A DNA stretch of 44,938 bases from IMG/VR virus record IMGVR_UViG_637000107_000005; one strand, given 5' to 3'. Shown here piece after piece: positions 3,001-6,000 of this stretch. Source of the DNA: a virus (taxonomy: Duplodnaviria; Heunggongvirae; Uroviricota; Caudoviricetes). How positions within the stretch are numbered: the stretch's first letter is position 1; every line of letters starts with the position of its first letter. Made by a program: the position numbers.

Positions 3001-6000
3001 GGCCAGAGGGCGCAGGCCAGTTCATTGTCGAGTGTTTTCCATGTCTGTTTGTATTCGCGGCGAATGGCAACAGTGACAGCCCCGGTTTTTTCAGCAGCGT
3101 TTTCAGNGTTCTGTTGGTTGACTCTGGCGCGGGNGAGATCAACAACAGACGTGTATTTTCCGGTTTCCTTGCGTTCACCTTCGCGACGTTTTTTCCAGAT
3201 GCGCATCTCTGCCTGAATTTCAGGCCATTTAGCGCCAGGCTCACATTTATGCTTAACCCACCCGATGGCATGCAGTTTAAGTTCAGGATACATGGCGTTA
3301 ACTTCTGGCATTTTCATCAACGCTTCAACGATATGTCCGCCGAATGTTGCCATGTCTTCCTGTAGTAATTCCTGTGCGCTAATCACCATATCAACGGTGA
3401 TGTTTTCGCATGTGTCGAATTTAACCAGGACTGCGTTCTGTACTTCAGGGGACAGCTTGTCAAAATTGACGTTCATCGGATCGGATTCTGGTTCGACCGG
3501 TACAAAGGAAGCTGACTCCTCATCCCAGCGGTTTTCCTGCATATATTCGGTATCCCAGGAATCGAGGGCAGGGCGGGGTATGCCGGGTTTATCCTCGCAG
3601 ACAATAAATTTATAAGCGCAGTCCTGAGCTGCCGGGAATTGCTCCAGAAATTGCCAGTGAAATTTTGCGCGTGCGCGACGCTCATCACCGGCTTCAATGG
3701 CAGTGGCCACCGCAACAGCGCTATCTTCTTTTATGGCCTGTTCGTCAGGAATAGCAGCGCAAATAAAGATTTTACTCATTGTGTTTTAACCTCATTACAG
3801 ATTTAAGGGTGAACAAATCCCTGCCATTGCTGGCATATAAAAATGAAACCGGATATTAATTACGGTGCTGTTTTAAAGTCCTGCCGGTATTTCGTTATTA
3901 TTAGTGTGAGTAGTTTTATCTACCGGATAACAGTTACCGGGAATTTTTTGTTCTGCTGCTGCAGCCATGCATTCTTTCATTGAACCGTATAAGCCAGTCA
4001 CCAGCTCAAGAGATTCGCCGGAAACAAGATAAACTGTCAGAACGAGTGCAAATGTTGTATTCATTGTTTATATCCTTTTTGCAGCAGGTCCAGACGAGCC
4101 AGCATTGAAGGAATGCATACTTCATTTAACAGGTCCTGCTCGAGTTTTCTCTGCTTAATGGCGTCTTCAATAAATGTTTTGTCTCCAGTGATAACGCCAA
4201 TTTCGAAACGAAGTTCAGACGTGCTGGCATTACATGATAACTTTTCCATTATCGCGTCCTCAACAATGAATTTTGTGATGCGGTGCCTGGTGCCTCCAGG
4301 TGACGTTAACCAGTTAACAATTAACGCCGGATACAGAGCATTCTCGTTACTCAGCAAATGACCGCTTTACCGATTTAACTGTTCCGCGTGCGCTGAGCCG
4401 CATTCACCGCATCACAAAATTCACTTTTAAAAAAGGGCGGCAGAGCAGTTACGGAGTAAAACTGATACCGCCAAATGTCACCAGAATATTGATAACAGAG
4501 GGCGTTGCAGCGGGGTTGTCACTTAAGCGTATGGTCAACCTGACAACCCGGTGTCCTCAACGGGGGAAAGAATAACCCCGCCATACTTACCGCCGCGCCA
4601 TTTCGCGGATTGCCACAACCGGAAGCGCACGGTCGAATTAAATTTAACGACGGCTCTAAGGGAGAAGGACTTCGCCGTGCACTTTCGTGTTATGCCCTGA
4701 CTTTTCAGGGATATATCCTTTCAGTAAACTGTCAGTGCCGGATTCTTATCTGTGTCCGGCGCACGACCACACGTAGCAGCGTGTTGGTCTCCATTTTTAA
4801 TTCAGCCCTTAATGGAGGATAAAATGCCAAACAAACCATGCCCTGCCTGTAACGCTCTTTCTGGCTTTTTAGAGAAGGGCGGTTATTACATTTTTAACTG
4901 TCCAGAACATGTTGAATTTCATATATCAAAACTTGACAGTATCATTACAAAGCCAAATCAGTATCAGTCTGATTTACTGAATAAAGAGTTAAACGCCGCC
5001 CGAGATTAAGGGCGTAGTGGCCCATTAAAAATATTGCAAAGACCAACTATTGTTGAACTGGATTAAACCAGTAATTCTCTATTGCTCTTATTGTTACCAT
5101 CGGATGATTGCCGGGGGTTATTTTAAGTTCGGGAGGAAAAGGCTCTCCATCAGCAGCCATCATTGAGTATGTGAAATCCGCCGACGCAGTCCCTTTCATG
5201 ATAATTCCGAATTTTTCAAGTAATGAGAGCAGTTCCGGTAATCCTGTGTCATCTGAATAACTTTCCTCATAGAAAGAAGCGATTGCCGCAGGAGATGACA
5301 GTTCTCGCTCTGCAATTTTTTTGTAGTTTTCCAGAATTCTTTTTTTGAATACTTTTCCTCGACATGAAAACCCATCACCGAGGCAATCCGCTTTGCAGTT
5401 TCTTCAGTATTCTGGTTGTTTGTTACCGAAACAGAGTACAATCCGGTAAACGCATCGCGCACATTACGAGCCATATTATCAATGTATTTCTTCGTTGCAG
5501 ATTCTAATTCAACTTCGTTCAGACGTTGGTGAAGTGCATGTGCTGCAATTTCCTGGATTTCTTTTAGTAAATCTTTAAATTCCATCTTTAACTCCGTTAG
5601 TCGTTAGATTTTGCCGAACTGGAAAGCGCCTGTTTAAACTCACTGAAGCTGAGAGCTTCCTCGCCTTCGGCAAGGCCTTCGAAGTATTCTTCGTAAGCCT
5701 TTTCCATGATTGTGTCGAAATCCATATCACTCACCTGAGTTTCTTTCCAGCCAGCGACGGGCACCATTTTCGGTTTTAAACGTTTTGCTTTTGGTATACG
5801 TCATCGCGGTGAATGTACCGTCCTGGTTGGGAAACACGCCGTACACCAGAGATTCGTTGTTGCCAAGATCGATAGTATCCATGTTGACCTCATTTCCCCT
5901 TAACGCCGGGTAGCGGAACAAAAACCTGCTGCATAGTTATTAAAGTTGAACCCTGCCGTCATGTTCATACGCCTCGGGCTGGCTACTTACCCCCTGACCA

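What the first reader, a model, noticed from the sequence alone, without database searches (positions are those of the whole stretch)
5047..5921. Three unassigned early-left ORFs, one split at a homopolymer run
Three coupled ORFs directly downstream of the leftward operators (51 aa, 42 aa, and a roughly 179-aa product split by a frame change in a 7-nt A/T run at about 5340-5346) match no family I recognise. The first genes of the pL operon in lambdoid phages commonly encode antitermination, anti-restriction or host-takeover functions, so these are candidates for unknown functions.
Basis: partly seen in the sequence, partly recalled or inferred. Interest (0 to 1): 0.5.

Follow-up and report, generated by a model that had tools for sequence, protein, structure and literature searches.

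The report
YdfA, YdfB and a frameshifted gene
These are the first three protein genes of the well-known dicBF cell-division-inhibitor operon of an E. coli O157 lambdoid prophage: two are YdfA and YdfB, and the third is an uncharacterised prophage gene cut short by a real one-base loss, so the finding is ordinary.

Summary
The ORFs are real, but they are known genes. The finding region is 100% identical to prophage Sp4 of E. coli O157:H7 Sakai (ECs_1065, ECs_1064, ECs_1063).

- **ORF 1 (51 aa)** is YdfA (DUF1391), identical to K-12 YdfA at 51/51 residues.
- **ORF 2 (42 aa)** is YdfB, identical at 41/41 aligned residues.
- **Operon:** both lead a repressor-controlled dicBF-type early-left operon. 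DicF sRNA, dicB and a ydfD-like gene lie just downstream.
- **ORF 3** belongs to an uncharacterised enterobacterial prophage family. It has a conserved N-terminal helical hairpin and interchangeable C-terminal domains, and follows ydfA in 79 of 80 related viral contigs.

The split in ORF 3 is genuine. It lies in the second A7 run (5316-5322), not at 5340-5346. Five intact alleles carry A8 there and encode 179 aa. All 386 complete E. coli genomes with this allele, and nine further contigs, carry A7, so it is not a sequencing error.

The best reading is a recent, fixed frameshift that leaves a 129-aa product keeping the N-module. Both A7 runs are in-phase A_AAA_AAA heptamers, so a trace of full-length protein is possible. 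No stimulatory element or conservation supports programmed recoding.

The function of all three proteins remains unknown. Interest is low.

The parts
6064..6113 (-). Operator-like palindrome with an embedded consensus -35 TTGACA (6094-6089). It is the candidate repressor-controlled promoter of the early-left (dicBp-like) operon.
   Evidence: Inverted repeat I1, with half-sites repeated at 7104-7142 between the repressor and cro-like genes. The -10 element is weak, and the promoter scan did not call a promoter here.
5727..5882 (-). ydfA homologue (51 aa, DUF1391). Equals Sakai ECs_1065.
   Evidence: Pfam PF07151 E = 1.7e-28. 51/51 identical to K-12 YdfA. 4 synonymous and 0 nonsynonymous differences from the K-12 gene. 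Sakai annotation.
5597..5725 (-). ydfB homologue (42 aa, acidic). Equals Sakai ECs_1064.
   Evidence: 41/41 identical to K-12 YdfB. phrog_2061 E = 3.5e-27. RefSeq names it 'protein YdfB'.
5196..5585 (-). Truncated third gene (129 aa; Sakai ECs_1063). Residues 1-89 are the authentic N-terminal part, and the last 40 residues are an out-of-frame tail.
   Evidence: ORF list. Alignment to intact homologues. phrog_1363 and phrog_2151 match the N-terminal part only.
5316..5322 (-). A7 run where the frame is lost (ancestral A8). In the 0 frame it reads ACA AAA AAA, which is an A_AAA_AAA heptamer.
   Evidence: A8 in five intact alleles, L014-L018. A7 in the window and in L001 and L005-L013. All 386 complete genomes that match the A8 query do so with a 1-base gap.
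5340..5346 (-). It is in frame (Ser-Lys-Lys), unchanged in intact homologues, and also an in-phase A_AAA_AAA heptamer.
   Evidence: Invariant columns in the alignment of the window with two intact homologues. Codon phase read from the sequence.
5047..5315 (-). The -1 frame remnant that encodes the ancestral C-terminal domain (residues 91-179). The 50-aa ORF at 5047-5199 is only its last part and starts at the conserved internal Met130.
   Evidence: Frame 3 is open. Two amino-acid differences from intact P0001 over this part (4 nt differences). Arg163, invariant in nine intact homologues, is Met here.
4825..5009 (+). Convergent 61-aa ORF with a CxxC motif (Sakai ECs_1061). It lies in the variable island between the third gene and dicF.
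   Evidence: phrog_10133 E = 7e-48, function unknown. Other prophages carry different plus-strand genes at this position.
4435..4486 (-). DicF small RNA
   Evidence: Rfam RF00039, 76.9 bits against a gathering score of 48, full-length model match.
4061..4249 (-). dicB (62 aa, cell-division inhibitor)
   Evidence: Pfam PF05358 E = 7e-39, full length. RefSeq annotation.
3873..4064 (-). ydfD-like gene (63 aa, DUF1482)
   Evidence: Pfam PF07358 E = 2.8e-19. RefSeq annotation.

Best explanation
The three ORFs are the promoter-proximal protein genes of the dicBF-type early-left operon of an Sp4-like lambdoid prophage of enterohaemorrhagic E. coli.

**Gene order (leftwards)**
- repressor gene
- RelB and RelE/ParE toxin-antitoxin pair
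- operator and promoter
- ydfA (51 aa)
- ydfB (42 aa)
- gene 3
- a variable island
- DicF sRNA
- dicB
- ydfD-like gene
- exonuclease
- excisionase and integrase genes

**How the operon is expected to work.** This is inferred from K-12 work on the Qin prophage. When the repressor is lifted, one leftward transcript is made. Its 5' part is translated into the three small proteins and also serves as the precursor from which RNase E and RNase III release DicF.

**Gene 3.** It belongs to an uncharacterised prophage family. The N-terminal helical-hairpin module of about 50-60 aa is conserved, and the C-terminal domain is interchangeable (212-aa, 112-aa and 179/186-aa types).

**The frameshift.** In this lineage a one-base contraction of an A8 run to A7 (5316-5322) shifted the frame.
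- The main product is a 129-aa protein that keeps the N-module and carries a 40-aa nonsense tail.
- The C-terminal domain, which is under purifying selection in intact alleles, is lost.
- Spontaneous -1 slippage may rescue well under 1-2% of product. This figure is inferred from published reporter values.

**Function.** The biochemical roles of YdfA, YdfB and gene 3 are not known. My inferred guess is that they are accessory host-takeover or exclusion factors, co-expressed with the division inhibitors DicF and DicB.
For: **Identity**
- The finding region is 100% identical to Sakai Sp4 genes ECs_1063-1065 and to 386 complete E. coli genomes at 99% identity or more.
- YdfA: Pfam DUF1391 E = 1.7e-28 and 51/51 identity to K-12.
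- YdfB: 41/41 identity to K-12.
- DicF, DicB and DUF1482 lie downstream.
- An operator copy lies upstream.

**Published operon**
- PMC5069750 gives the order ydfA-ydfB-ydfC-dicF-dicB-ydfD, states that ydfABC have unknown function, and reports multiple copies in O157 Sakai and EDL933 prophages.

**Gene-3 family**
- 131 homologues were found.
- 83 cluster representatives were found, nearly all matching only residues 1 to about 60.
- The gene follows ydfA in 79 of 80 IMG/VR loci, with three C-terminal types.
- In the structure model, the hairpin over residues 1-55 has pLDDT 80-90.

**Frameshift**
- Intact homologues of 177-186 aa exist.
- A8 is present in five independent intact alleles. A7 is present here and in every near-identical copy.
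- The C-domain of intact alleles has dN/dS 0.17-0.21.
- The window allele has Met at the otherwise invariant Arg163.
- Only 4 nt separate its C-part from an intact allele, so the event is recent.
Against: - No experiment or structural match assigns a function to any of the three proteins, so the functional part of this explanation is inference from context only.
- The frameshifted allele is found, near-identical in sequence, in several serogroups (O157:H7, O103, O121, O111). This could mean it is tolerated, or that it is selected.
- Both A7 runs are perfect in-phase slippery heptamers leading into the same open -1 frame. Some full-length protein cannot be excluded.
- The promoter itself was not called by the consensus scan.
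Confidence: 0.85

Rival explanations
1. Programmed recoding. The A7 allele would be a two-product gene. Most ribosomes make the 129-aa protein, and a set fraction slip -1 at A_AAA_AAA, or RNA polymerase adds an A, to make the 179-aa protein.
For: - Both A7 runs (5346-5340 and 5322-5316) are in-phase X_XXY_YYZ heptamers. The -1 frame is open from about 5400 to 5047.
- A_AAA_AAA gives 0.405% -1 frameshifting in E. coli without a stimulator and 24.8% with the IS3 pseudoknot (PMC4066793, supplementary table).
- C_AAA_AAA in pDEST17 gave 25-60% frameshifting under over-expression (PMC1851650 abstract).
- The allele is present in all 386 complete genomes that carry it.
Against: - Intact relatives encode the protein in one frame, either with A8 or with the non-slippery CCAAACGC. 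The shift is therefore derived, not a conserved feature.
- The downstream RNA folds no better than shuffled sequence, with z-scores of +0.2, -0.6 and +0.5.
- No Shine-Dalgarno-like stimulator lies 6-17 nt upstream (read).
- The invariant Arg163 is replaced in the shifted allele.
Confidence: 0.07
2. Sequencing or assembly error. The true sequence would have A8 and an intact 179-aa gene.
For: - The window contains more than 100 ambiguous bases, so it is not a polished sequence.
- Homopolymer deletions do occur in some assemblies. One example is L020, with A6 plus four other homopolymer deletions in 3.3 kb and no mismatches.
Against: - The same A7 is present in all 386 complete E. coli genomes that carry the allele, including Sakai and TW14359.
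- It is also present in 8 IMG/VR contigs and 1 metagenome contig.
- There are no N bases in or near the finding region.
Confidence: 0.01
3. Phase-variable contingency locus. The tract would switch between A7 (off) and A8 (on) within populations and so toggle the C-terminal domain.
For: - A homopolymer of 7-8 bases lies inside a coding region.
- Both lengths exist in nature.
Against: - A8 is seen only on other haplotypes.
- None of the 386 complete genomes or 9 other contigs of this haplotype has A8.
- The one A6 case is an assembly artefact.
- From general knowledge, A7-A8 tracts are short for efficient slipped-strand switching in mismatch-repair-proficient E. coli.
Confidence: 0.03
4. Two genuinely separate, translationally coupled genes (129 aa and 50 aa), as the ATGA overlap suggests.
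For: - The stop and start codons overlap as ATGA at 5196-5199.
- A 50-aa gene call exists in public collections (P0122).
Against: - The 50-aa ORF begins at the conserved internal Met130 of a continuous domain spanning residues 91-179.
- The last 40 residues of the 129-aa ORF have no counterpart in any intact homologue.
- RefSeq does not annotate the 50-aa ORF.
- Only a weak GGA lies upstream of the ATG (read).
Confidence: 0.03

Closest known systems
dicBF operon of the Qin cryptic prophage, E. coli K-12 (ydfA-ydfB-ydfC-dicF-dicB-ydfD)
   Same: - Same gene order and orientation relative to a CI-like repressor.
- YdfA and YdfB are identical in protein sequence to the K-12 proteins.
- DicF, DicB and a YdfD-like gene are present.
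- A repressor operator lies upstream.
   Different: - The third slot holds an unrelated gene. There is no alignment to K-12 YdfC.
- The immunity region is different: a different repressor, a different operator sequence and an upstream region that does not align.
- A RelB and RelE/ParE pair is inserted between the repressor gene and the promoter.
- A convergent plus-strand ORF sits before dicF.
Intact 177-186-aa alleles of the third gene (for example WP_411961432.1 in strain TUM9812, WP_000394524.1 in ETEC4068, and P0001-P0009)
   Same: - Same position after ydfA and ydfB.
- 63-94% protein identity to the repaired window sequence over the whole length.
   Different: - They are read in one frame, with A8 or no homopolymer.
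- The window allele has A7, ends at 129 aa, and carries Met at the invariant Arg163.
212-aa 'Ybl81'-type prophage proteins (P0019, P0026; phrog_2151)
   Same: - Nearly the same N-terminal 50 residues (MEFKDLP...NVRDAFTGLY).
- The same slot after ydfA in dicB-containing prophages.
   Different: The C-terminal domain is unrelated. These proteins are also of unknown function, with no Pfam or PADLOC match.
Programmed -1 frameshift genes of E. coli (dnaX; IS1 and IS3-family transposases)
   Same: An in-phase A_AAA_AAN slippery heptamer, with a longer product in the -1 frame.
   Different: - No stimulatory hairpin, pseudoknot or Shine-Dalgarno-like element.
- The shift is not conserved among homologues.

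Membership tests
YdfA / DUF1391 (PF07151) | Sequence match to the family model above the curated cut-off | tested here: met
   98.5 bits against a cut-off of 27.3, E = 1.7e-28, full-length match. 51/51 identical to K-12 YdfA.
YdfB | Sequence identity to K-12 YdfB and a position directly after ydfA | tested here: met
   41/41 identical. The start codon lies 1 nt after the ydfA stop. RefSeq names it ydfB. No Pfam or NCBIfam HMM exists for it.
dicBF-type operon | DicF sRNA and dicB downstream of ydfA on the same strand | tested here: met
   DicF Rfam 76.9 bits at 4435-4486(-). DicB Pfam 7e-39 at 4061-4249(-). DUF1482 at 3873-4064(-).
dicBF-type operon | Promoter repressed by the adjacent CI/DicA-like repressor | tested here: inconclusive
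   The operator palindrome is shared between 6064-6113 and the repressor/cro intergenic region at 7104-7142. Repression itself cannot be tested with these tools, and the -10 element is weak.
dicBF-type operon | [quoted passage not shown] | not testable with these tools
   Shown for K-12 Qin only (bioRxiv 10.1101/2023.04.14.536235; PMC5069750).
YdfC (K-12 third gene) | Sequence similarity to K-12 YdfC | tested here: not met
   No BLASTP alignment at E <= 100.
Programmed -1 ribosomal frameshift gene | In-phase X_XXY_YYZ slippery heptamer with an open -1 frame | tested here: met
   ACA AAA AAA at 5324-5316 and TCA AAA AAA at 5348-5340. The -1 frame is open to 5047.
Programmed -1 ribosomal frameshift gene | Downstream stimulatory RNA structure or upstream Shine-Dalgarno-like element | tested here: not met
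   Folding z-scores of +0.22, -0.56 and +0.53 for 60-120 nt downstream. No GGAG or AGGA lies 6-17 nt upstream.
Programmed -1 ribosomal frameshift gene | Frame shift conserved among homologues | tested here: not met
   All more distant homologues are read in a single frame.
Phase-variable (contingency) gene | Tract-length polymorphism within one haplotype | tested here: not met
   All 386 complete genomes and 9 other contigs of this haplotype have A7. The single A6 case is an assembly artefact.
   No significant hit in Pfam, NCBIfam, PADLOC, PDB sequences or Foldseek against PDB. PHROG matches are all 'unknown function'. The structure model is low-confidence outside residues 1-55.

The most novel reading that the evidence does not exclude
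The EHEC allele would be an undescribed recoding gene rather than a dead gene. Two tandem in-phase A_AAA_AAA heptamers 24 nt apart both feed the same open -1 frame. Derepression of the prophage would then yield a fixed ratio of a 129-aa N-module protein and the full 179-aa protein. This could explain why the A7 allele is present unchanged in several EHEC serogroups.
Probability: 0.07. Interest if true: 0.4.

Novelty: already known. Interest (0 to 1): 0.17.

Why it matters
There is little new here. The locus is the published dicBF operon of a catalogued O157:H7 prophage (Sakai Sp4), and two of the three 'unassigned' ORFs are YdfA and YdfB.

**Modest points of value**
- The split gene is a real, fixed one-base frameshift, not a sequencing error, and its exact site is now known.
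- The third slot of dicBF operons holds a family with a constant N-terminal hairpin and swappable C-terminal domains, next to a variable island. That makes it a sensible place to look for accessory or exclusion functions.
- YdfA, YdfB and this family are still functionally uncharacterised, even though they are co-expressed with DicF and DicB. From the papers read, DicF and DicB affect cell division and DicF affects EHEC virulence regulation; a DicB role in phage resistance is from my own knowledge and was not checked here.

Tried and rejected
**Structure prediction of the intact 179-aa homologue**
- With 9 sequences, mean pLDDT was 49.9.
- With 86 sequences, mean pLDDT was 53.4, and only residues 1-55 were confident.
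- Foldseek against the PDB gave nothing at E <= 0.001.
- Foldseek against viral models gave only two stand-alone N-module homologues of unknown function.

**Other function searches**
- A profile search of PDB sequences gave no significant hit. The same was true for YdfA and YdfB.
- PADLOC, Pfam and NCBIfam gave only sub-threshold noise for gene 3.

**Leads examined and dropped**
- Weak profile hits of the C-domain to two giant repeat proteins (fibronectin type III and MBG repeats) are judged spurious repeat matches.
- The label 'head-DNA stabilization protein D' on ydfA in some phage records has no support here: the only similarity I found to a head decoration protein is insignificant (PDB search, E = 0.38).
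- The 105-aa A6 variant (P0011) comes from an assembly with five homopolymer deletions and no mismatches in 3.3 kb, so it is an artefact.
- K-12 YdfC was considered as the counterpart of the third gene. It is unrelated.
- The IncI-plasmid 'ydfA' of PMC12111858 is a different gene.
- dN/dS in the shifted lineage has no power, because only 4 nt differences exist.
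Full report
**What is at 5047-5921**

On the minus strand there are three closely packed ORFs.
- A 51-aa ORF at 5727-5882. The finding's end of 5921 is a TTG-extended version of it.
- A 42-aa ORF at 5597-5725, starting 1 nt after the first stop codon.
- An ORF starting 11 nt further on, at 5585. It runs 129 codons to 5196.
- A 50-aa ORF (5047-5199) that overlaps the end of the third ORF by ATGA.

Translating all three frames shows that the -1 frame is open from about 5400 to 5047.

**Identity of the locus**

The finding region is 100% identical to prophage Sp4 ('lambda-like phage') of E. coli O157:H7 Sakai. There the three ORFs are ECs_1065, ECs_1064 and ECs_1063. A 601-nt stretch covering gene 3 and its flanks (window 5000-5600) is 99% or more identical in 386 of 5,426 complete E. 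coli genomes.

An Rfam scan of the window finds the DicF small RNA at 4435-4486 on the same strand (76.9 bits against a gathering score of 48). Pfam finds three families:
- DicB, at 4061-4249, E = 7e-39
- DUF1482 (YdfD-like), at 3873-4064
- DUF1391, for the 51-aa ORF, E = 1.7e-28

The 51-aa and 42-aa proteins are 51/51 and 41/41 identical to K-12 YdfA and YdfB. ydfA differs from the K-12 gene by four synonymous changes and no replacement changes.

The locus is therefore a copy of the dicBF operon, known from the Qin prophage as ydfA-ydfB-ydfC-dicF-dicB-ydfD. The literature says the following about that operon:
[quoted passage not shown] - EHEC strains carry four dicF copies, and DicF affects pchA and stx2 expression (PMC7873438).

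**Control region**

Upstream of ydfA, after the terminator of a RelB and RelE/ParE pair (6126-6141), lies a 21-nt-arm palindrome at 6064-6113. Its half-sites (ACAATAAAAAACTGT / ACAGTTTTTTATTGT) recur at 7104-7142, between the CI-like repressor gene (6666-7067) and the cro-like gene. A consensus TTGACA sits inside the palindrome at 6094-6089.

The -10 element is weak, however, and the promoter scan did not call a promoter there. The promoter is therefore inferred, not shown. The upstream region does not align with the K-12 dicA-ydfA spacer, apart from the last 45 nt or so before ydfA. That fits a different immunity type.

**The third gene**

It is unrelated to K-12 YdfC. Searches with the repaired protein gave these results:
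- 131 homologues in the large protein collection.
- 83 cluster representatives in an exhaustive profile search. Almost all of these match only residues 1 to about 60.
- Full-length relatives of 177-186 aa occur in E. coli and Salmonella prophages.
- The only distant relative of the C-terminal half is a 119-aa protein. It is the first gene after the repressor in a KilR-type prophage.

In 79 of 80 related IMG/VR loci the gene follows ydfA. Where the flank reaches far enough, dicB lies downstream. The same N-terminal 50 residues are joined to at least three different C-terminal parts, giving 212-aa, 112-aa and 179/186-aa types.

Downstream of the gene, different prophages carry different plus-strand genes. 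Here it is a 61-aa ORF with a CxxC motif at 4825-5009 (phrog_10133, unknown function). The picture is a conserved left arm (ydfA, ydfB and the N-module), a variable island, and a conserved right arm (dicF and dicB).

Between the two intact subfamilies, the C-terminal domain has dN/dS of 0.17-0.21 at pS of about 0.6. It is therefore a real, constrained domain. The N-module shows dN/dS of 0.4-0.95.

**Where and what the frame change is**

I aligned the window with two intact homologues.
- The missing base lies 24 nt further on, in a second A7 run at 5316-5322.
- Five independent intact alleles read ACTACAAAAAAAATTG or ACTGCAAAAAAAATTG there, which is A8, and encode ...EFWKTTKKIAERELLSP... (or ...EFWKTAKKIAERELSSP...).
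- More distant alleles have CCAAACGC at that position.

Adding one A to the window sequence restores a 179-aa protein that is 94% identical to P0001.

**Is it a sequencing error?**

No. A query carrying A8 matches 386 complete genomes, and every match has a one-base gap there. None has A8. The strains include O157:H7, O103, O121:H19 and O111:H11. Eight IMG/VR contigs and one metagenome contig also have A7.

A 105-aa 'A6' variant comes from an assembly with five homopolymer deletions and no mismatches over 3.3 kb. I treat it as an artefact. The window has many ambiguous bases elsewhere, but none near this region.

**Dead allele or recoding?**

Both A7 runs are in phase as A_AAA_AAA heptamers (TCA AAA AAA and ACA AAA AAA). 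A -1 slip at either one enters the open frame that encodes the C-domain.

Published values for this heptamer in E. coli are as follows:
- 0.405% without a stimulator
- 0.82% with the IS911 stimulators
- 24.8% with the IS3 pseudoknot (all three from PMC4066793, supplementary table)
- 25-60% for a related C_AAA_AAA site under T7 over-expression (PMC1851650)

In the window allele, several observations argue against programmed recoding:
- The 60-120 nt downstream fold no better than shuffled sequence, with z-scores of +0.22, -0.56 and +0.53.
- There is no Shine-Dalgarno-like element upstream.
- Homologues are not shifted.
- The shifted allele carries Met at Arg163, which is invariant in nine intact homologues.
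- Its C-part differs from an intact allele by only four nucleotides, so the event is recent and there is no power for a selection test.

I conclude that this is a recent, fixed frameshift. The 129-aa product retains the whole conserved N-module. That module exists as stand-alone proteins of 50-130 aa in many prophages, so the product may still be active. Residual full-length synthesis of roughly 1% or less is an inference from the reporter values above.

The ATGA-overlapping 50-aa ORF starts at the conserved internal Met130. It is a fragment of the domain, not a gene.

**Function**

Nothing assigns a biochemical role to any of the three proteins.
- Pfam, NCBIfam and PADLOC gave no significant match for gene 3, and PHROG families are all 'unknown function'.
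- PDB sequence searches were negative for all three proteins.
- AlphaFold models were confident only for an N-terminal helical hairpin, residues 8-24 and 32-55.
- Fold searches returned only uncharacterised homologues of that hairpin.
- Stx phages carry a 31%-identical, 147-aa relative in the same general early-left accessory region.

The mechanism I commit to has two parts.
- **Shown.** This is the translated 5' portion of the repressor-controlled dicBF transcript.
- **Inferred.** Its products are small accessory host-takeover or exclusion factors made together with DicF and DicB. The third gene's effector-like C-domain is inactivated in this lineage.

**Verdict**

The feature is already known and annotated, apart from the unremarkable detail of the frameshift site. 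Interest is low.

Noticed in passing
window 4435-4486 (-), 13224-13398 (+), 17022-17188 (+): Rfam finds the DicF sRNA just downstream of the finding. It also finds a sok antitoxin RNA (hok/sok type, 105.6 bits) and STnc100 (94 bits) elsewhere in the prophage.
   Followed up: partly
window 6160-6638 (-): A RelE/ParE toxin gene (6160-6447) and a RelB-type antitoxin gene (6447-6638) are inserted between the repressor gene and the ydfA promoter. They have their own terminator at 6126-6141. Related prophages such as those in TUM9812 and ETEC4068 lack this pair.
   Followed up: partly
window 4825-5009 (+): A convergent 61-aa ORF with a CxxC motif (ECs_1061; phrog_10133, unknown function) lies between the third gene and dicF. 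Other prophages hold different plus-strand genes in the same slot (175 aa, 135 aa and 80 aa). This looks like a variable cargo island.
   Followed up: partly
window 5340-5346 and 5316-5322 (-): Two A7 runs lie exactly 8 codons apart. Both are in phase as A_AAA_AAA slippery heptamers, and both lead into the same open -1 frame. The first run is conserved in all intact homologues examined.
   Followed up: yes
window 5883-6063 (-): The leader before ydfA is long (about 180 nt) and partly G+C-rich. It has roughly 55 nt with no counterpart in the K-12, TUM9812 or ETEC4068 spacers. Only the last 45 nt or so before the ydfA start are conserved. Its function is unknown.
   Followed up: no
window 3107, 3134 and more than 100 further positions, densest at 33.5-37 kb: Many single ambiguous bases (N) are present, two of them inside the 823-aa exonuclease gene. 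This suggests a consensus built over several near-identical prophage copies or a low-quality assembly. None lies in the finding region.
   Followed up: no
L034-L035 and other IMG/VR loci; P0093, P0127: The same N-terminal 50 residues are joined to different C-terminal parts, giving 212-aa, 112-aa and 179/186-aa types. Some database members (182 and 186 aa) look like frameshifted 212-aa genes, so truncation after the N-module may recur in this family.
   Followed up: partly
L019 3554-3913: The only distant relative of the C-terminal domain (P0136, 119 aa, without the N-module) is the first gene after the repressor in a KilR-type prophage. This is the same immediate-early-left position in a different operon type.
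   Followed up: partly
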